64,000 bases of DNA from Candidatus Doudnabacteria bacterium. GTDB lineage: Bacteria; Patescibacteriota; Doudnabacteria; UBA920. Below the pieces are notes generated by a model that worked only from the letters and a program-made list of their open reading frames with translations, made no database searches and was not told where the DNA came from. Shown one piece after another: positions 1,566 to 18,345 of this stretch. Position numbers and translations under genes: made by a program. The stretch covers positions 793,078 to 857,077 of the forward strand of contig CAWINB010000004.1 in NCBI GenBank assembly GCA_963837465.1, read 5' to 3'. Numbering within the stretch: the first letter of the stretch is position 1; each line of letters starts with the position of its first letter.

Positions 1566-2522
1566 ATGACTCTAAAATCACAAAAAATAATCTGCTGCTT
1601 ACTTATTGCCCTGGTGGTGGTCGGGGGCTTTGAGGCGCTGATTTATATTTTAAATTTAAACCAGCCCGCTATCTATTTACAGACGGCTTTTTGGATTTTT
1701 GCCTATCTGGTTTTTGAAATAGTTTTTTTGCATGATCTGCACGTTAAAACTTCCGGCCATTTAAGCCGCGCGCGCTTAGAACACGCCCGGGTTAAGCAAA
1801 AACCGCTCCGCTTTATAAAAGTTTTGGGCTCGGCTTTTTACGGTCGTTTTCATCATTTGCGGAAATGGGGTTATATAAAACAATGGCTGGGCTTTTTGCT
1901 GCTGCCGAGTTTTATTTTTTGGTCCACTATTTCCCTGTTTTACGTTAACTTTGGCGATGTAAAAGTCCAGCAGCTTTTGGCCCTGTTTTCCAGCCTGGCT
2001 TTGATTCTGGACTATTGGTTTTTAAAGGAAGCGTTCCTCCGCGGCAGGGAAGTGGCGGACAATGATATTTTTGTGGTCCTGTCCATGATAAAAATTTACG
2101 CCGCGGCCATGCTCTACGCCGCGGCCTTATCCATTTTGCGCTACTATTGTTTAAACCCCTGGTATTTTACCGCCGAGGTTTTTTGTTTTACCTTCCTGCT
2201 TGTTTACCAGGCGCTTTACCACCATCGCCGCGCCGGCATAAAAAATATTTCCGTGGCCCTGGGCATTGCCGCCATAATGGCCGCGGCCGGGTTTATGGTC
2301 TACATTTGGTGGGGTTATAATTATTTCACGGCGGCCGTGTTTTTGGCCGCGCTTTATAATTTAATGTGGGGAGTTTTCCATTACCGCCTGGATAAGGCCC
2401 TGACCTGGCACGCTTTTTGGGAAATTTTACTGGTCAGCATTATTGTTTCCGGTATGGTTTTCAGCGTCACCAACTTTAAGGCCAGGATTTCGGACGAATG
2501 CCAGTATTATCTTGACTTTTGA
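1566..2522 (+). CDS. Polytopic integral membrane protein, function unknown
   Basis: 318-aa ORF with ~9 hydrophobic helices; no recognisable catalytic motif. Confidence 0.55.
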   Translation: MTLKSQKIICCLLIALVVVGGFEALIYILNLNQPAIYLQTAFWIFAYLVFEIVFLHDLHVKTSGHLSRARLEHARVKQKPLRFIKVLGSAFYGRFHHLRKWGYIKQWLGFLLLPSFIFWSTISLFYVNFGDVKVQQLLALFSSLALILDYWFLKEAFLRGREVADNDIFVVLSMIKIYAAAMLYAAALSILRYYCLNPWYFTAEVFCFTFLLVYQALYHHRRAGIKNISVALGIAAIMAAAGFMVYIWWGYNYFTAAVFLAALYNLMWGVFHYRLDKALTWHAFWEILLVSIIVSGMVFSVTNFKARISDECQYYLDF

Positions 2523-2550
2523 TTTTAGTACGGCCACGTTTTAGCCTAAA

Positions 2551-2585
2551 CAAGGGCGCCCCTTTGCTGCAAAGGGGCGCCCTTG
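2551..2585. terminator. GC-rich hairpin between convergent genes (bidirectional terminator)
   Basis: caagggcgcccctttgctgcaaaggggcgcccttg, perfect stem. Confidence 0.55.
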
Positions 2586-2611
2586 CGCGCGGCTGATGCC
2601 TAAAAACCTAT

Positions 2612-3688
2612 TTAAAACCAGTACAAAAACGCCACCACAATAATCGAAATTCCCAGCATCACCAGGTTGTTGGTTTTTTTATCCAGGGAGCCGAGTTTGT
2701 TTTCCAGAATTTTTTTGGCGTCAGAAAGCATTAGCGCCAAAAGCAGGGCGCCGCAAATTAAAATCAGGTAGCGGTTGGCTTGGTAATTGTCAAAAGCGCT
2801 TTCGTCCTCCGCGCCAACTACTGCCGAAGCCGAAGAAGTTTGGCTTGCCTGAGCCGGCGTTTGTTCGGCCGAGCCCGCGGCTTGGGTTGATAAAGCGAAA
2901 TTTTGCTCCTGGTTTGGGGCCGCCTGGCTTGATAATCCGCCGCGAATCGGAATGGGTAGGGCGGTGATAGTTTGGGATGCCTGGCCGATTGCCGGCTGCG
3001 GTATGCCTGAAGCTTGAACTTGGCTGGCTTGTAACGGTTGTGGCGAAGCAGCGTGAGCGGCTGCCGCGGCCGCGACATGGGACGGAAGTTTTTGGGCCGG
3101 TGGTTTAGACGCCGAGGCGACCAGAGCAGCCGGGACTTTAAGCTGAGCTATAGGCGCCAGCGTGCCAAAGGTATTGGTAATGGCGGAATAATATTGTCCC
3201 TGCGCCACATTGCCAAAGGTTAAGCCCATGCCCTGGTCCACAAAACCCGCGTTTAAAATATTGGCGCGATGTTCCGGGCTGTTCATCCAGGCATTTATTA
3301 AACTGTCGGTATCGTAAAACTCAATGGCCAGGTTTTCTCCCAATCGCAAATACGGAGTGTAGCCGTCGGCAACTATGGTATCCCAGATATAGTGCCCTCC
3401 CGGGTCCACATGCGAAAAATAATGGCGGGCTTGCATATCATCGCTCTTGGTCTGCGCGGCTTTAGTCAGTATAGCGTTGGTGTTTAAAGTGGTTAAATCT
3501 CTTAACTGTCTTTGGTTGTTAATGGCTTCCAGGATATTTAGGGTAGTTAAATCCGAAGCCTGAGTGGCATGATTTGGTAAAAATAAGGTGATTAAAACTT
3601 TAACAGCCAAAAAAACTACAACCAAAAGCCCAAAAAGTTTGGTTTTAAAAAAATGATAGTGGATCCTAAAACTGTAGTTTTCGTTCAT
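2612..3688 (-). CDS. Membrane-anchored CAP/SCP (YkwD-like) domain protein with Ala/Gln/Pro/Ser-rich linker
   Basis: HYFSHVDPGGH...NAWMNSPEHRANILN CAP-domain motifs; N-terminal TM helix; low-complexity AQASQ region. Confidence 0.7.
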   Translation of the reverse strand: MNENYSFRIHYHFFKTKLFGLLVVVFLAVKVLITLFLPNHATQASDLTTLNILEAINNQRQLRDLTTLNTNAILTKAAQTKSDDMQARHYFSHVDPGGHYIWDTIVADGYTPYLRLGENLAIEFYDTDSLINAWMNSPEHRANILNAGFVDQGMGLTFGNVAQGQYYSAITNTFGTLAPIAQLKVPAALVASASKPPAQKLPSHVAAAAAAHAASPQPLQASQVQASGIPQPAIGQASQTITALPIPIRGGLSSQAAPNQEQNFALSTQAAGSAEQTPAQASQTSSASAVVGAEDESAFDNYQANRYLILICGALLLALMLSDAKKILENKLGSLDKKTNNLVMLGISIIVVAFLYWF

Positions 3689-11781: not shown

Positions 11782-13647
11782 ATGCGTTCAAAATCAAAAA
11801 ATTTCCCTTTTTCCGTTATCGGCCTGATTTTTTTATTTGGCGCGGTTTTTTCCCCGTTTTCACCGGTTTTCGCAGCGCCGGTCGTTTATGCTGATAGCCA
11901 GCCGGAGCTTTTTACGGTAAAGCTTAAAAGTTCCGGCGACTTCGGTCGGTTGCTGGCTGTCGGCGGCAGCATCCATCACTTATTTTTGGGCGATAATAAT
12001 CCCAGATTTGAAAATATTTACGATTTTACTTCGGGTTATTCTTTGGGTGTCCTGGAAAAAGATTTGCAAAACACTTTTGTTTATTTACAGGCCGAGCAAA
12101 CAACCGAGGCCGCGGGAATAGTGGTGGATGACCCCGGCTTTACCACAAATCCTTTGGATGTAGACAAGCAGTGGGGTTTAATTAAAACCGGCTTTGACCA
12201 GGCCTGGGAAAAAACCACGGGTTCGCAAAGCAATATCGTAGCCATTATAGATACCGGTATTGACGCCACGCACCAGGATTTGCAGGCTATAAATTATGTG
12301 CAGGGTTATGATTTTGTCAACCAAAAACCCATAGCGCCGGGCACGAACTCAGACGACAACGGCCACGGCACTTTGGTTACCGGTGTTTTAGCCGCCACGG
12401 CCAATAACGGGCTTGGCATAGTCGGTACGAATTGGCATATATCGATTATGCCCATAAAAGCCCTGGATTCTTCCGGACAGGGAGACGCCGGCACGCTGGC
12501 TCAGGCTATTGTTTGGGCCACGGACCACGGGGCGCAGTTTATAAATTTAAGTGTCGGCGGCGTGGGTTTTGGCCAGGATGCAACTTTATCCAATGCCATC
12601 TCTTACGCTTTTAATAAAAATGTGGTCATTGTGGCCGCGGCCGGCAACGATACCAACGCCGCGGGGCAAAGCCTGGACGAAAACCCCATCTTCCCGATTT
12701 GCGATGACAACAATTACAATATGGTTATAGGTGTGGCGGCCACTGACGTGAACAATCAGAAAGCCGACTTTTCCAATTACGGCCGCAATTGCATAGATGT
12801 GGACGCGCCGGGCAAGCGTATTCTTTCCACCATCAGTATTGATCCTGTTACAAAAAAACCGACGCCAAATTCCTACGCCTACGCTTCAGGCACTTCGCTG
12901 TCCGTGCCTTTTGTGGTCGGGCAGGCCGCGCTTATAAAGACCCTTTATCCTTCCGCCACCAACATCCAGATTCGGGACCGGATTATCGCCACGGCCGATT
13001 CAATAGACAGCCTAAATCCCACCCAATGCGGCGGCGGTTCCTGCGCCGGACTTTTGGGTGCCGGCGAAATAGACGTGCCCGCCAGTTTAAACCAGCCGAT
13101 TTCCCAAATTTTTTCCGAGGGCGACCTGGTAAAAGTCAGCGACGAGAACGGCGCCATTTACCAGATTTCTGGCGGTCAAAAACGCCTGGTTTCGCCTTTC
13201 GTTTTCAATCAGCGCTTTAGCGACTCCCCGCTAAAAACCGCTACTTCCGCCCAGCTGGCCGATTACCCGGAAGGCGCTTACGTTACGCCGCTTGACGGTA
13301 CTTTGGTTAAGTTTAACCAAAGTCCGGCGGTTTATATTATGGAGGAGGGCCAAAAATCGCCAATAACTTACCAGGTTTTTACGCAGAGAAATTTAAATTT
13401 TTCCAGTGTCAGCACTCTCAGTTCCCCGGAACTTAATTCCTGGACAACCGGTAATTTTTTTCCGCCGCTTGACGGTACTTTGGTCCGCGGGCAGAAAAAC
13501 CCAACGGTTTACTGGGTGGTGGACCAGGCCTTGCATCCTGTGGACAGAGCTTTTTATCTTAACAGGGGCCTGAATATTTTTCCGTTTATGCTGGTGCCTG
13601 ACACGGACATTTCCAGCTACTCTCAGGGCCAGGCTTATATCAGCTAA
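11782..13647 (+). CDS. Secreted subtilisin-like S8 serine protease with a C-terminal repeat module
   Basis: Signal peptide; catalytic triad in AIIDTGID / NGHGTLV / SGTSLSVPFVVG; C-terminal ~220 aa carries DGTLV..AVY repeats shared with the next gene. Confidence 0.85.
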   Translation: MRSKSKNFPFSVIGLIFLFGAVFSPFSPVFAAPVVYADSQPELFTVKLKSSGDFGRLLAVGGSIHHLFLGDNNPRFENIYDFTSGYSLGVLEKDLQNTFVYLQAEQTTEAAGIVVDDPGFTTNPLDVDKQWGLIKTGFDQAWEKTTGSQSNIVAIIDTGIDATHQDLQAINYVQGYDFVNQKPIAPGTNSDDNGHGTLVTGVLAATANNGLGIVGTNWHISIMPIKALDSSGQGDAGTLAQAIVWATDHGAQFINLSVGGVGFGQDATLSNAISYAFNKNVVIVAAAGNDTNAAGQSLDENPIFPICDDNNYNMVIGVAATDVNNQKADFSNYGRNCIDVDAPGKRILSTISIDPVTKKPTPNSYAYASGTSLSVPFVVGQAALIKTLYPSATNIQIRDRIIATADSIDSLNPTQCGGGSCAGLLGAGEIDVPASLNQPISQIFSEGDLVKVSDENGAIYQISGGQKRLVSPFVFNQRFSDSPLKTATSAQLADYPEGAYVTPLDGTLVKFNQSPAVYIMEEGQKSPITYQVFTQRNLNFSSVSTLSSPELNSWTTGNFFPPLDGTLVRGQKNPTVYWVVDQALHPVDRAFYLNRGLNIFPFMLVPDTDISSYSQGQAYIS

Positions 13648-13673: not shown

Positions 13674-15539
13674 ATGCTCCTTTCCCGGATAAAAAAAATA
13701 ATTGCCTGCGCGTTGCTGCTGAGTTATCCGTCCGTAGTCTTTGCCCAGGCTGTGGATCCCAACGCCGTGGATCCGGCTTTTAACCCCAGCCTGCTCATTT
13801 CCGACAGCGCGTTTTCCGATACCCAGACTTTTGGCGGCGCGGCCGGCATCCAGCAGTTTTTGGAAATCAAAGGTTCGCCTTTGGCAAACACCAGCGTCGG
13901 TTTTTTGGCCGAGCTTAAGGAACCAAACGCGATTTTGCTTAAGGAAGGACTGGACGATCCCGAACCGAATCTGCCGCAGCTTCGCACAGCCGCGCAATTA
14001 ATTTGGGACGCTTCACAAAGCAGCGGGCTTAATCCTCAAGTGATTTTGGTAACCATGGAAAAAGAGCAGAGTTTGATAGACGGGCAGTTTTCCTCGGCCG
14101 GTGATTTGCAAACGGCTCTGGACCACGCTATGGGTTTTGGCTGTCCCGACTCCACGGGTTGCGATGATTTATTTCCGGGTTTTTACTACCAGCTGTTTGG
14201 CAATTATGATTCCAGCGGCAACCGTTATTTGGGAGCGGCCAAAAGCCTTATGAAGTCTTTTAGCACGCCGGGAGGACGGGGACCGGACATCAACGGCCAG
14301 GCTGCCGTTACCGGCCAGACTGTGGATATCCAAAATAGTTTGGGAGGTTTCGACAATATTGCCGCTGACCAGCTTGTCCGGCTGGGCGATAACGCCACGG
14401 CCGCGCTTTACCGCTATACGCCCCATGTTTTTAACGGCAATTATAATTTTTGGAAATTTTTTACTTTGTGGTTTAAATACCAAAACGGCACACTGGTGGC
14501 GTTATCGGGCGACCCCAATACTTATGTTATAGAAGACGGAGGCAAACAATTGGTGCCTGCTTTTGTGGCCCAGGCGCGCGGTTTGAATTTGGCTTCTAAA
14601 ACTACCATTTCTCCCACGGAATTTGCGGATTATCCCACCGGCCAGATTTACACTCCGGCCGATAATACCGTCATCCAAACCCCGGACGGACAAACTTACG
14701 TCTTTGTAAACGGCCAAAAACATCCGGCTTCGGCCTTTGTAATCAGCCAGCGCGGTTTGGGCACATCCACTCCTCTTAGCGCTTCGGCCGCCGATGCCTC
14801 TTTGTTCCCCACATCTTCGGTCCTGCCGCCCAAAGACGGCACGGTAATCCGCGGTAAAACCGAGCCGGCTGTGTATTTGGTCAGGAACGGACAGATTGAA
14901 ATTTACACCGCTTACACTTTTGCCCAAAATAAAATCAAGTCCGGGCAGATTGTGATTGTGCCGGACAATGAGATAAGCGCCTACACTCAAAATGGTCTTG
15001 TTCCGCCGCGGGACGGCAGTTTAGTCAGGACGGCGGACAACGCCACGGTTTACCTGGTCCAGGACGGCACCAGGCACGCGGTGATTTCCGATGTCTTTAA
15101 AAACCAGGGCTACAGTTACAATAATGTCGGGACTATTTCCGATCCCCAAATTAACGCCCTGCCGGTGGGCGCTTATGCCCAGCCAAAAGACTACACTTTC
15201 TTCGCGGTTGATTCCAAAACCGGTCCGCTCTATGAATTTAAAAATGGCGTGACCCACTCAATCTCGTCTTTCGTGGCCAAGCAAAGAGGGATAACGCCGG
15301 ATTACGTCTTTAGTAACGCCGTGTTCGTGGAGTGGTTCGGCGGCATTCCGGTTCCGCCCAGGGACGGGACATTGCTTAAAGGTGATGCCAGCGCCGCCGT
15401 TTACCTGGTCAAAAACGGCCAGCTAAACCCGCTCACTGCCGCGCAATTCGCCGCCGGCCGCTACAGCGCCAAAAAAATCGTAACCCTGCCCCAAGCCGAA
15501 ATAAACTCCTACCCCACGCCGAACTCGGTGACACAGTAG
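13674..15539 (+). CDS. Secreted protein built from at least 5 copies of a ~60-aa repeat (P-[KR]-DG-[TS]-L-[VI]-[KR]...AVYLV.NGQ...)
   Basis: Signal peptide MLLSRIKKIIACALLLSYPSVVFAQA; repeats seen directly in the translation. Confidence 0.7.
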   Translation: MLLSRIKKIIACALLLSYPSVVFAQAVDPNAVDPAFNPSLLISDSAFSDTQTFGGAAGIQQFLEIKGSPLANTSVGFLAELKEPNAILLKEGLDDPEPNLPQLRTAAQLIWDASQSSGLNPQVILVTMEKEQSLIDGQFSSAGDLQTALDHAMGFGCPDSTGCDDLFPGFYYQLFGNYDSSGNRYLGAAKSLMKSFSTPGGRGPDINGQAAVTGQTVDIQNSLGGFDNIAADQLVRLGDNATAALYRYTPHVFNGNYNFWKFFTLWFKYQNGTLVALSGDPNTYVIEDGGKQLVPAFVAQARGLNLASKTTISPTEFADYPTGQIYTPADNTVIQTPDGQTYVFVNGQKHPASAFVISQRGLGTSTPLSASAADASLFPTSSVLPPKDGTVIRGKTEPAVYLVRNGQIEIYTAYTFAQNKIKSGQIVIVPDNEISAYTQNGLVPPRDGSLVRTADNATVYLVQDGTRHAVISDVFKNQGYSYNNVGTISDPQINALPVGAYAQPKDYTFFAVDSKTGPLYEFKNGVTHSISSFVAKQRGITPDYVFSNAVFVEWFGGIPVPPRDGTLLKGDASAAVYLVKNGQLNPLTAAQFAAGRYSAKKIVTLPQAEINSYPTPNSVTQ

Positions 15540-15627
15540 GTTTAATCTCCGTTGTCCAAAGCGGAAGCCTAACCAACTTTAAGTTTGCTCCATTGAACAT
15601 AGTTGATAAATCTGATAAACTGGAAAT

Positions 15628-16233
15628 ATGAATATTTTGCCTGAAGCAAGCTATAAAAAGACCACGCAGGTATTGAATTTTTTTGCCCAAAAAAAAGACG
15701 GCAAGATAAATAGGATGAAGGCTATTAAGCTGGTGTATCTTGCCGATCGTTTGCATTTACGCAAGTATGGCCGTCCTATTGTCGGCGATATTTATTGGGC
15801 GATGAAATTGGGCCCTGTTGGCTAACGCGCGAAAGATGCCGCCGAACTTGCGGATATACCGCCGGGTGTTTTTAGTTATGTAAAAAAATATATTCAGCCT
15901 GTCGACGGGAAAAAACAGATTTTTTCTTCCCTAAAATCCCCGGATTTGGATATTTTTTCAAAAACAGACATAGAATGTTTGGAAGCGGTTTTTGCCAAGT
16001 TTTCCGACAAAGACCAATTTGAACTCGCGGATTACACCCACACTTTAAACGAATGGCTCAAACATAAAAAAGAATTGGATAGCGGGAAAAAAAGAGTTAG
16101 GATGGATTACGACGATTTTTTTACGGATAGTCCAAAAGAAGACGATTTTTTTTCCGAAAATAAAACGGACTTATCTTTATCCAAAGAATCTTTTGATGAA
16201 TTAAAAGGAGTCCTGGAATTTTTTGCGAAATAA
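15628..16233 (+). pseudogene. Panacea (DUF4065/SocA-like) antitoxin-domain gene interrupted by an in-frame TAA at 15823-15825
   Basis: ORFs 15628..15825 and 15946..16233 share a frame and are separated by one stop; KLVYLADRLHLRKYGRPIVGDIYWAMKLGPV is the Panacea core. Confidence 0.55.
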
Positions 16234-16245
16234 TTTTTAAATCCA

Positions 16246-16689
16246 ATGGAAATACCCCCTAAAGTCAGAATTCCATTGCGCGTTGAGCAGGGTTCCGTCT
16301 TTATTTTTTACATCGATTTTGGAGACGCGAAAAGACAGTCAAAGAATCGCTATTTTGTAGTTCTAAGTCAGGAGCCGAAGACTGATACCGCTTTGACTAT
16401 GGTTACCTCTACAACGCAAATATCAAAAAAGTTCGAGTACGTAACCAGGATGGGTATTAGCGAAAAAACGATTGTAGAAATTACAGCCAAAGAATACTCC
16501 GTGTTTGGTTCCAGTAGCTGTTTTAATTGTAATGACGTTTTTGAGGTAAGTTTGAGAGATTTGATCCGCAAAGTTGAAGAAAACGGCTCGGATAATTATC
16601 CCAAAATGCCGTCTCATTTACTTTTAAAACTTATAGATGGGGTAAAAACAAGCCCTCGTGTTCCGGAGGAGTTAAAAAAGATGATCTAA
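16246..16689 (+). CDS. MazF/PemK-fold toxin-like protein, candidate toxin partner of the upstream Panacea gene
   Basis: QGSVFIFYIDFGDAKRQSKNRYFVVLSQEP...MVTSTTQ parallels MazF GDLIWVDFDP...RPAVVLS...VPCTTQ. Confidence 0.5.
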   Translation: MEIPPKVRIPLRVEQGSVFIFYIDFGDAKRQSKNRYFVVLSQEPKTDTALTMVTSTTQISKKFEYVTRMGISEKTIVEITAKEYSVFGSSSCFNCNDVFEVSLRDLIRKVEENGSDNYPKMPSHLLLKLIDGVKTSPRVPEELKKMI

Positions 16690-16899
16690 AAAATTATCGA
16701 TAATCAAAGCTGTTTTTTTCTAAGAAGATGTTTAAAAAGTGCTTTGTAGGCGAAATTACAGAATTTTGCGCGGATTGACGGAAACAAATTTTGACGTTTA
16801 GCCTAAAGCTAAGCGGAAAAATTTTTTCCGGCAAGGCGCCAAACATTCTGGAATTGCGGCCCAAATGACTTTTTAAACAGCTTCTAAGCGAAAAAGCTA

Positions 16900-18345
16900 A
16901 TGAGTTCCCATATTTCCAAAAATATTTTCTGGCTCACGGCCAGCAGAGTGGCGGCGCTGGTTTTGCTGGCGCTGGCTTATTTTGCCCTGTTTAGGTATTT
17001 AAAGCCTTTTGGCTCCGGCGAGTATCAGTTTGTCCTGTCTTACGTGCTGCTGTTTTCCACTGTCGTGGATTTTGGCATTCAGCAGTTTATCACCAAAAAA
17101 ATCAGCGAAGACCCCAGCCGGACCCGCGAATATTTCCAGGAATTTTTTGCCTTTGAAACCGTCATCGCGTTTTCGCTGTACGTTTTGCTTATGATTGTGG
17201 CTTTTTTGCGCCACTACGACCGGACCATCATAGAAGCCATCAGCGTTGCCGGCATAGGCATGGTGGCCAACGCTTTGACTTATCCGTTTTTAGCTGTCAT
17301 GGCCGCTTTCCAGGATTTGCGTAAAGTCGCTTTTATCAATTTTTTAAATTCGCTGGTCAACGTCGGCGTAATTTTCGCGGCCATTATTTTTCACCGCTAC
17401 ATTGTATTTTTATCCTCCGTCCAGGTAATTTTTGGCCTTTTGGATTTGGCCCTGTACCGTTTTTATATTAAGAAGTATATTGCCAACCCCCAAGCCTGGA
17501 AGTCGGCCTTTAAATTTGATTTCCACCTTATAAAAAATATTCTAAAACAAGGCTGGCCGTTTGCTTTGCTGGTCGGCTTTAGCGCCATTTATAACAGGAT
17601 AGATGTAATTTTAATTTCCGCCATCAAGGGCTATACCCAAACCGGTTTGTATACCGCGGCCTATAAAATATTTGATTTGCTCGGATTTTTCCCGTCCGTG
17701 GTTTCCTATACTTTATTCCCGTTTTTTTCCGGATTAATGGCCAAAAAAGCAATAGCGGAAGTTAAGGAAAACTTGGAAAAATATTTGCGGCTGATGCTGG
17801 CGGGAGCCCTGCCCATGGCCATTGGCGGAATGCTTTTGTCCTCAAAATTAATCGGCCTGGTGGCCGGGCCCGGCTATGGGCCTGCCGCGCCGGTTTTGGC
17901 CATTTTAATTTGGGCGCCCGCGATTTTATTCGTTTACATCCCTTTAAATTCTTTGGTCATTTCGCAGCTGACAAAAAAAGCGGTTTTAATAACCGGTATT
18001 AATGTTATTGTTAACACGGTGGGAAATTTAATTTTAATCCCGCGTTTCGGCATCAGGGCTTCGGCCGTCATGACGGTAGTTTCCGAAAGCCTGCAAGGAG
18101 CATTTTATTTTTACTTTGTGCGGAAAAATATCACCAAGTTCAGTTTCTTGCCCATTTTATACAAGCCGTTAATCGCATCTTTGGTAATGGGTTTTTTGCT
18201 CTGGCCGGTGCGGTTTAAGCCTCTGGCTTTAACTTTACCTTTTGGCGCGGGAGTATATGTCGTGGCGCTGCTGCTGCTGGGTTTTATAAAAAAAGGCGAC
18301 TGGTTGTTCATAAAAAGTTTGTTTGGCAACAAAATTCCGGCGTAA
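16900..18345 (+). CDS. Wzx-like MOP-superfamily polysaccharide/oligosaccharide flippase
   Basis: 481 aa, ~12-14 TM helices, PST-family architecture. Confidence 0.8.
   Translation: MSSHISKNIFWLTASRVAALVLLALAYFALFRYLKPFGSGEYQFVLSYVLLFSTVVDFGIQQFITKKISEDPSRTREYFQEFFAFETVIAFSLYVLLMIVAFLRHYDRTIIEAISVAGIGMVANALTYPFLAVMAAFQDLRKVAFINFLNSLVNVGVIFAAIIFHRYIVFLSSVQVIFGLLDLALYRFYIKKYIANPQAWKSAFKFDFHLIKNILKQGWPFALLVGFSAIYNRIDVILISAIKGYTQTGLYTAAYKIFDLLGFFPSVVSYTLFPFFSGLMAKKAIAEVKENLEKYLRLMLAGALPMAIGGMLLSSKLIGLVAGPGYGPAAPVLAILIWAPAILFVYIPLNSLVISQLTKKAVLITGINVIVNTVGNLILIPRFGIRASAVMTVVSESLQGAFYFYFVRKNITKFSFLPILYKPLIASLVMGFLLWPVRFKPLALTLPFGAGVYVVALLLLGFIKKGDWLFIKSLFGNKIPA

What the first reader, a model, noticed from the sequence alone, without database searches (positions are those of the whole stretch)
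15628..16689. Panacea-domain antitoxin gene broken by one in-frame TAA, next to a MazF/PemK-fold ORF: candidate unconventional toxin-antitoxin pair
Two ORFs (15628..15825 and 15946..16233) share a frame and are separated by a single TAA. Together they give a ~200-aa protein whose N-terminus carries the Panacea/DUF4065 (SocA-like) core KLVYLADRLHLRKYGRPIVGDIYWAMKLGPV. 

The next gene (16246..16689) has the MazF/Kid pattern G-S-V-x-x-x-x-D-F...R-x-x-V-V-L-S...T-S-T-T-Q. Panacea domains are known hyperpromiscuous antitoxin modules, so this pairing is plausible. 

Three readings are possible. The antitoxin may be a pseudogene next to a retained toxin-like gene. The N-terminal 65-aa Panacea core may act alone. 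Or the stop may be read through. 

The module sits between the surface-protein island and the glycan cluster, a typical accessory location.
Basis: partly seen in the sequence, partly recalled or inferred. Interest (0 to 1): 0.75.

Follow-up and report, generated by a model that had tools for sequence, protein, structure and literature searches.

The report
Antitoxin gene broken by one stop
This is an ordinary two-gene toxin-antitoxin module of a known type, common in the tiny Patescibacteria, whose antitoxin gene here carries one fresh premature stop codon while the toxin gene next to it is intact.

Summary
The frame 15628..16233 is open except for one TAA at 15823-15825. Joined, it gives a 201-codon protein that matches the whole Pfam Panacea domain (E=1e-18).

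The pair belongs to a tightly conserved Patescibacteria module: a ~201-aa Panacea antitoxin (PanA), a 6-17 nt gap, then a 147-aa toxin. I surveyed 95 related loci, and 62 show both genes complete.

The stop replaces a Ser that is present in 113 of 116 aligned PanA sequences and is TCN in all 22 relatives read at DNA level. One base change (TCA to TAA) is enough. Downstream of the stop, 49 of 52 highly conserved positions are kept, so the lesion is very recent, or else an assembly artefact.

TAA is the commonest genuine stop in the window, which argues against recoding. The 65-aa N-fragment is less than a third of one globular domain, so it is unlikely to work alone.

Panacea antitoxins paired with MazF-like toxins were validated experimentally in 2022, so the pairing is not unconventional.

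Verdict: a new member of a known kind, with a young nonsense mutation. Interest is low.

The parts
15628..15822 (+). panA 5' part, codons 1-65: an N-terminal helix plus the first third of the Panacea domain
   Evidence: Pfam PF13274, E=3.2e-9, profile positions 3-33 of 113. Identity to the family consensus is 83%. In the model of an intact relative this stretch is H6-22, H29-47 and the hairpin E57-64.
15823..15825 (+). Premature TAA at codon 66, replacing a near-invariant Ser
   Evidence: All 22 relatives read at DNA level have Ser here: TCG 11, TCA 5, TCT 4, TCC 2. Ser66 is present in 113 of 116 aligned PanA sequences.
15826..16233 (+). panA 3' part, codons 67-201: the rest of the Panacea domain, then a C-terminal tail with two DDFF motifs and a long helix. 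It is open and undecayed.
   Evidence: Pfam PF13274, E=1.2e-6, profile positions 78-112. 49 of 52 columns that are at least 90% conserved are kept, including all 13 in codons 67-106. The DDFF motifs appear as direct repeat D1 at 16111-16127 and 16141-16157. The source genome's annotation calls only the 95-aa TTG fragment, P0241.
16234..16245 (+). 12-nt spacer between panA and the toxin gene
   Evidence: The spacer is 6-17 nt in all 22 related loci examined.
16246..16689 (+). Intact 147-aa MazF/PemK-fold toxin gene (a PanT, the toxin partner of PanA) with a ~35-aa C-terminal helical extension

Best explanation
The locus is a type II PanA-PanT toxin-antitoxin module. An upstream ~201-aa antitoxin made of one globular Panacea domain is co-transcribed with a 147-aa MazF/PemK-fold toxin, presumably an endoribonuclease. 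In intact copies the antitoxin binds and neutralises the toxin. The module belongs to a tightly conserved family spread through Patescibacteria.

In this genome a single nonsense substitution (Ser66, TCA/TCG to TAA) has just truncated PanA to 65 residues. panA is therefore a very young pseudogene and the module is at the start of decay.

Why the cell survives is inferred, not shown. The likeliest reasons are:
- reduced toxin expression, because 420 nt upstream of the toxin start are now untranslated (polarity, or loss of translational coupling);
- an attenuated toxin allele (N20I, N41S);
- a compensating antitoxin encoded elsewhere in the genome.
For: Shown:
- There is a single in-frame TAA, and the joined product matches the full Panacea domain at E=1e-18.
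- 449 homologues were found; those listed are almost all ~201 aa, and the best is 76% identical.
- Ser66 is TCN in 22 of 22 relatives read at DNA level.
- Of 95 surveyed loci, 62 have both genes complete and adjacent. A PanA disrupted beside an intact toxin occurs only in the window and in L008.
- There is no decay after the stop: 49 of 52 conserved columns are kept, and no other stop or frameshift is present.
- TAA is the main genuine stop in the window, ending 28 of 52 long ORFs.
- Long ORFs of up to 1286 aa are uninterrupted, so the assembly is not generally error-prone.

From the literature: PanA paired with MazF-like toxins inhibits translation and is neutralised by PanA (PMC8832971). Standalone Panacea neutralises directly and needs core residues from both halves of the domain, Y56 and H120 in B. 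choladocola PanA (PMC10440598).
Against: - The TAA cannot be checked against reads. No same-species contig exists in the collections searched, and the nearest homologues are 69-76% identical.
- An antitoxin null next to an intact toxin is normally counter-selected, and the toxin keeps its putative catalytic Arg35 and Thr56.
- The two private toxin substitutions are not statistically unusual for such a long branch. Another family member also has two, and the window's nearest neighbour is 69% identical against a family median of 87%.
- No toxicity or neutralisation has been measured for any member of this family.
Confidence: 0.6

Rival explanations
1. The TAA is an assembly, consensus or minority-variant artefact, and the organism has an ordinary intact PanA-toxin pair.
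For: The gene is otherwise perfect: 49 of 52 conserved positions after the stop are kept. One base change is enough. A lone toxin should be deleterious. The genome is one 868-kb contig of a metagenome-type assembly.
Against: The change is a substitution, not a homopolymer indel. Every other long ORF in the 64 kb is uninterrupted, up to 1286 aa. In a polished assembly, a consensus substitution that creates a stop is far rarer than a real pseudogene.
Confidence: 0.15
2. The antitoxin still works as a split or trimmed protein. A C-terminal fragment is translated from an internal start (TTG codon 107 or 118, or the family-invariant ATG at codon 159) and neutralises the toxin through the acidic and aromatic DDFF tail and the terminal helix.
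For: In-frame starts exist at codons 107, 118, 150 and 159. This genome rarely uses Shine-Dalgarno sequences (4 of 38 genes), so the lack of one is no obstacle. M159, Y161, D163, F165 and F175 are invariant in the family. The source annotation calls the 95-aa fragment as a gene. In some PanAs, neutralisation is carried by a C-terminal element rather than by Panacea itself (PMC10440598).
Against: The confident model shows one compact fold (pTM 0.86) with the terminal helix packed on the domain, not a free tail. Codons 67-106 would be untranslated under this reading, yet they keep all 13 conserved positions, which points to recency rather than a settled new architecture. Only 1 of about 77 assessable loci has this layout. 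The isolated Phd-C element of another PanA was inactive unless it was stabilised.
Confidence: 0.12
3. The toxin allele was already inactive or weak, so loss of PanA was neutral. Both genes are on the way out.
For: The window's toxin is the only one of 115 with changes at two otherwise invariant Asn positions (N20I, N41S), and it differs at five columns that are at least 90% conserved. Toxin decay beside an intact PanA occurs elsewhere in the family: L022/L088/L089, L090 and L093.
Against: The toxin ORF is full length. It retains R35, T54, T56 and Q58 and 55 of 60 conserved columns. Its count of private changes is matched by another member and is expected for its long branch.
Confidence: 0.1
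4. The stop is decoded: programmed read-through or TAA reassignment yields full-length PanA.
For: Only that the downstream frame is intact.
Against: TAA terminates 28 of 52 long ORFs, including panA itself and the toxin gene, and all three stop codons are in use. No relative has a stop at this site. No RNA element was found.
Confidence: 0.02

Closest known systems
PanA-PanT systems with EndoA/PemK/MazF-like toxins (Pseudomonas moraviensis and Bifidobacterium ruminantium pairs; Kurata et al. 2022, PMC8832971)
   Same: A Panacea-domain antitoxin sits next to a toxin that has little or no sequence-level domain hit but a predicted MazF fold. Those pairs were shown to inhibit protein synthesis and to be neutralised by PanA.
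   Different: This is a separate sequence family seen only in Patescibacteria metagenome genomes. The toxin carries a ~35-aa C-terminal helical extension, and PanA has a ~58-aa C-terminal extension. No member has been tested. Here the antitoxin has a premature stop.
MazEF / PemIK (Kis-Kid) type II toxin-antitoxin systems
   Different: The antitoxin is a globular Panacea domain, not a MazE/AbrB or ribbon-helix-helix protein. The toxin scores below the Pfam cut-off (20.2 against 23.1 bits), and a profile search found no solved structure at sequence level.
SocAB (type VI; the Panacea protein SocA acts as a ClpXP adaptor)
   Same: It shares the Panacea domain.
   Different: The NCBIfam SocA equivalog scores 17.1 bits against a cut-off of 190. 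The partner has a MazF fold and is not SocB.
Type III CptIN / ToxIN systems
   Same: CptN is the top Foldseek match of the toxin model (E=3e-4) and has a similar length (155 aa).

Membership tests
PanA (Panacea / DUF4065, PF13274) antitoxin | Panacea domain scoring above Pfam's gathering threshold | tested here: met
   The joined translation scores 68.7 bits against 25.7, covering profile positions 3-112 of 113. Each fragment alone also passes.
PanA (Panacea / DUF4065, PF13274) antitoxin | Intact open reading frame encoding the whole domain | tested here: not met
   TAA at codon 66, coordinates 15823-15825. Relatives are intact in all assessable loci except L008.
PanA (Panacea / DUF4065, PF13274) antitoxin | Conserved two-gene arrangement with a toxin-like partner | tested here: met
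   PanA sits directly upstream of the 147-aa gene with a 6-17 nt gap in 22 of 22 loci. 62 of 95 surveyed loci have both genes complete, and most of the rest are cut by contig ends.
PanA (Panacea / DUF4065, PF13274) antitoxin | Neutralises the partner's toxicity by complex formation | not testable with these tools
   This needs co-expression and pull-down experiments.
MazF/PemK/Kid toxin (PF02452) | Sequence match above Pfam's gathering threshold | tested here: inconclusive
   The window protein scores 20.2 bits against 23.1. 24 of 29 members hit at E<=0.01, all below the cut-off. More distant relatives P0245 (24.2 bits) and P0250 (25.4 bits) pass. A profile search of PDB sequences gave 0 hits. 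hhalign against B. subtilis MazF gave probability 8.7%, E=0.0038.
MazF/PemK/Kid toxin (PF02452) | MazF/Kid/CcdB SH3-like barrel fold | tested here: met
MazF/PemK/Kid toxin (PF02452) | Catalytic Arg and Thr (R25 and T48 in B. subtilis MazF; residue roles are from my own knowledge of Simanshu et al. 2013) | tested here: inconclusive
   T56/Q58 align with T48/Q50. R35 in KNRYFVVL is invariant in the family and lies in the Pfam-aligned region, but its equivalence to R25 rests on inspection only.
MazF/PemK/Kid toxin (PF02452) | Sequence-specific endoribonuclease activity and growth arrest | not testable with these tools
SocA (type VI antitoxin) | Match to the NCBIfam SocA equivalog, and a SocB partner | tested here: not met
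   NF047745 scores 17.1 bits against a cut-off of 190. The partner has a MazF fold.
Type III ToxIN/CptIN | Tandem repeat RNA antitoxin array adjacent to the toxin gene | tested here: not met
   No tandem array in 15480-16950. No Rfam match in 15000-17500 at E<=1.
Stop-codon reassignment or programmed read-through | The codon is not used as a terminator elsewhere, or the in-frame stop recurs in orthologues | tested here: not met
   TAA ends 28 of 52 long ORFs. None of the 22 relatives read at DNA level has a stop at this codon, and no other PanA in the 95 loci has an in-frame stop.

The most novel reading that the evidence does not exclude
The break is not simple decay. Either a C-terminal PanA fragment (from codon 107 or from the invariant Met159), carrying the two DDFF motifs and the terminal helix, is made and is enough to hold the MazF-like toxin in check. 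Or the reduced-genome host keeps an unguarded MazF-like RNase for its own use. Either would show that the neutralising element of a 'standalone' Panacea antitoxin can be separated from the sensor-like core.
Probability: 0.1. Interest if true: 0.5.

Novelty: new member of a known kind. Interest (0 to 1): 0.2.

Why it matters
It matters little beyond annotation. The result shows that a PanA-MazF-like module is common and unusually well conserved in ultra-small Patescibacteria: gene lengths are fixed, identity across lineages is 57-76%, and a wider family of ~145-aa relatives spans 685 clusters at 50% identity. I found no paper describing this family in Patescibacteria.

The broken copy gives a natural starting point for asking which part of a standalone Panacea antitoxin neutralises a MazF-like toxin. 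It also illustrates that toxin-antitoxin decay can begin on the antitoxin side. The pairing itself and its presumed mechanism are already established.

Tried and rejected
- Looking for the same strain elsewhere to check the codon failed. An exact 26-nt pattern around the stop found nothing in the metagenome contigs. The GTDB scan did not return the source genome. The exact-product look-up of the toxin found no contig.
- Foldseek of the PanA model against PDB gave no meaningful hit (best E=1.4), so there is no solved Panacea structure to compare with.
- PADLOC gave no hit for either protein. NCBIfam gave only a far-sub-threshold SocA hit.
- A profile search of solved-structure sequences with the toxin family gave 0 hits.
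- The promoter and terminator scan found no more sites than shuffled sequence, and nothing convincing upstream of panA.
- I first read the absence of Shine-Dalgarno motifs in the panA-toxin spacers as evidence for translational coupling. I dropped that as evidence because only 4 of 38 genes in the window have such a motif at all.
- I considered the window toxin's private substitutions as evidence of inactivation. They are not exceptional for its long branch, so they remain only a lead.
- dN/dS on the window lineage is not feasible, because the nearest relatives are 69-76% identical at protein level.

Full report
**1. What is in the sequence**

On the + strand, the frame that starts at ATG 15628 runs for 65 codons to a TAA at 15823-15825. 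It reopens at once and continues for 135 codons to the TAA at 16231-16233. The '15946' start of the second ORF in the finding is only the first TTG after the stop.

Pfam SocA_Panacea (PF13274) matches as follows:
- the N fragment over profile positions 3-33 of 113 (E=3.2e-9);
- the C fragment over positions 78-112 (E=1.2e-6);
- the joined 201-residue translation over positions 3-112 (E=1e-18, 68.7 bits against a cut-off of 25.7).

One domain has therefore been cut by one stop. Twelve bases after panA comes an intact 147-codon ORF, 16246..16689.

**2. The pair is a conserved module**

A search of 5.8 billion proteins with the joined antitoxin gave 449 hits. Those listed are almost all about 201 aa, all carry PF13274, and the best is 76% identical. 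The 147-aa protein gave 143 hits, nearly all exactly 147 aa and 57-70% identical. Named sources for both lists are Patescibacteria metagenome genomes (Paceibacteria, Zambryskibacteria, Moranbacteria, Uhrbacteria, Portnoybacteria and others).

In 22 fetched loci, PanA lies directly upstream of the toxin with a 6-17 nt gap. A wider survey covered 95 loci:
- 62 have both genes complete, and most of the others are cut by contig ends.
- A disrupted PanA beside an intact toxin occurs only here and in L008. L008 has a 1-nt deletion in an A7 run at codons 22-23, with a restart at Met30.
- Toxin disruption beside an intact PanA occurs three times independently: L022=L088=L089, L090 and L093.
- L050 carries the pair twice in tandem.

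**3. The stop codon**

Codon 66 is Ser in 113 of 116 aligned homologues. It is a TCN codon in all 22 relatives read at DNA level: TCG 11, TCA 5, TCT 4, TCC 2. TCA to TAA is a single C-to-A change.

After the stop, the window keeps 49 of 52 columns that are at least 90% conserved. This includes all 13 in codons 67-106, which no re-initiated product could contain. There is no second lesion. The mutation is therefore either evolutionarily very young or not real.

Recoding is not supported. TAA is the most used terminator in the window (28 of 52 long ORFs, against TGA 13 and TAG 11), and it ends both genes of this module. The assembly shows no general damage, since ORFs of up to 1286 aa are uninterrupted.

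Reads are not available. No same-species sequence was found in the metagenome or genome collections.

**4. The antitoxin's architecture**

An AlphaFold2 model of the closest intact relative (P0121) is confident, with pLDDT 88 and pTM 0.86. It shows one compact fold with these elements: H6-22, H29-47, hairpin E57-64, H67-73, H79-88, two strands, H112-125, H130-137, H141-151, a short H161-165 and a long terminal helix H179-200.

The stop falls just after the hairpin, so the 65-residue product is two helices and a hairpin of a larger domain.

Published mutagenesis of a standalone Panacea antitoxin showed that core residues from both halves, Y56 and H120, are needed for neutralisation (PMC10440598). 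This family has invariant Y56 and H138 in corresponding elements; that equivalence is my inference. The N fragment acting alone is therefore unlikely.

**5. The toxin**

The window protein scores 20.2 bits on Pfam PemK_toxin against a cut-off of 23.1. 24 of 29 family members give similar sub-threshold hits. A profile search of solved-structure sequences found nothing.

hhalign against B. subtilis MazF is weak (E=0.0038, probability 8.7%). It nevertheless aligns family T56/Q58 with MazF T48/Q50, and the DSAFNCN segment with the DSVILLEQ segment. I had verified the MazF sequence against 4ME7.

An exhaustive profile search found a wider family of ~145-aa proteins: 685 clusters at E<=1e-3 and 251 at E<=1e-10. 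Two of ten members sampled from it pass the Pfam PemK threshold. The protein is thus a divergent MazF/PemK-superfamily member with an extra C-terminal helical region (H103-114, H123-135, H141-146).

**6. How it most likely works**

By analogy with validated PanA-PanT pairs whose toxins are MazF-like and inhibit translation (PMC8832971), intact copies are probably type II modules. PanA would bind and neutralise an endoribonuclease, possibly acting as a sensor in phage defence (PMC10440598). None of this has been tested for this family.

In this genome PanA is truncated. Survival with an intact toxin needs one of the following:
- (a) Little toxin synthesis. The stop leaves 420 nt untranslated before the toxin start, which would favour polarity or loss of coupling. 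This is inferred.
- (b) A weakened toxin. N20I and N41S are unique among 115 sequences, but they are not statistically unusual for this long branch.
- (c) A compensating antitoxin elsewhere in the 868-kb genome. This is untestable here.
- (d) A functional C-terminal fragment. In-frame starts exist at codons 107, 118, 150 and 159, and the genome largely lacks Shine-Dalgarno motifs (4 of 38 genes), so unconventional initiation is not excluded.
- (e) The stop is not real.

**7. Comparison with known systems, and novelty**

Panacea antitoxins paired with PemK/MazF-like toxins are already described and validated, so the pairing is not unconventional. A literature search found no description of this family in Patescibacteria. 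It is a new member of a known kind.

It is not SocAB: the SocA equivalog scores 17 bits against a cut-off of 190. It is not a type III system: there is no RNA repeat array and no Rfam hit. PADLOC holds no model for it.

**8. Context**

The module sits inside a cell-envelope and glycan cluster. In order, the genes are:
- epimerase (9529);
- GT2 (10892);
- S8 peptidase (11782);
- an unknown 621-aa protein (13674);
- the module itself;
- a Wzx-like flippase (16900);
- a cytidylyltransferase (18388);
- GT1 (19197);
- a Wzy_C protein (20237).

The closest relative's copy also follows glycan genes, but it precedes type IV pilus genes. The neighbourhood is therefore not conserved, which fits a mobile accessory module.

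**9. Verdict**

The most likely reading is a very recent nonsense mutation in the antitoxin gene of an otherwise standard PanA-MazF-like module (confidence about 0.6). The main rivals are an assembly artefact (about 0.15) and a still-functional C-terminal fragment (about 0.12). Interest is low (0.2).

Noticed in passing
window, whole (e.g. starts at 759, 1566, 9529, 16246, 16900): Only 4 of 38 long genes have a Shine-Dalgarno-like motif in the 20 nt before the start. 49 of 52 long ORFs are on the + strand. This fits a Patescibacteria-type genome with SD-independent initiation.
   Followed up: partly
L008:939-1540 (CAILDB010000011.1): A second disrupted PanA beside an intact toxin. A 1-nt deletion in an A7 run (A6 here, A7 in the near-identical L009) shifts the frame at codons 22-23. 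An ATG at the invariant Met30 overlaps the new stop (ATGA) and would give a 171-aa product that retains the whole Panacea domain.
   Followed up: partly
L022:4001-4243 (MHVH01000006.1), also L088 and L089; L090:1501-1940; L093:698-1125: The opposite direction of decay. The toxin is truncated after about residue 76 and followed by unrelated, more GC-rich sequence (L022/L088/L089), or is frameshifted (L090, L093). PanA is intact upstream in every case.
   Followed up: partly
L050:885-3174 (Ga0209541_10038473): Two complete PanA-toxin pairs in tandem (885-1941 and 2116-3174), each about 70% (PanA) and 58-59% (toxin) identical to the query proteins.
   Followed up: no
L081, L082:139-465, L083: Three contigs hold only toxin residues 39-147 with no PanA upstream. 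This may be an N-terminally truncated remnant or a different gene fusion.
   Followed up: no
window 16111-16127 and 16141-16157: A direct DNA repeat encodes two DDFF motifs 10 residues apart in the PanA C-terminal tail (MDYDDFF...EDDFF). The Phe residues and Met159 are invariant across the family. This is a candidate toxin-binding element.
   Followed up: partly
window 11782-13647 and 13674-15539: Two adjacent ORFs of exactly 621 aa each. The first is an S8 subtilase with a long C-terminal extension. The second has no Pfam hit. Both contain several copies of a ~55-65-aa motif of the type 'VYLVxxGxxxxIxSxxVFxxxG', apparently an undescribed repeat of surface proteins.
   Followed up: no
P0242-P0391: The 147-aa toxin belongs to a much wider family of ~140-155-aa proteins (685 clusters at 50% identity at E<=1e-3). 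Full-length matches include the C-terminal helical extension. Only some members reach the Pfam PemK threshold, so this looks like an unmodelled MazF-like subfamily.
   Followed up: partly
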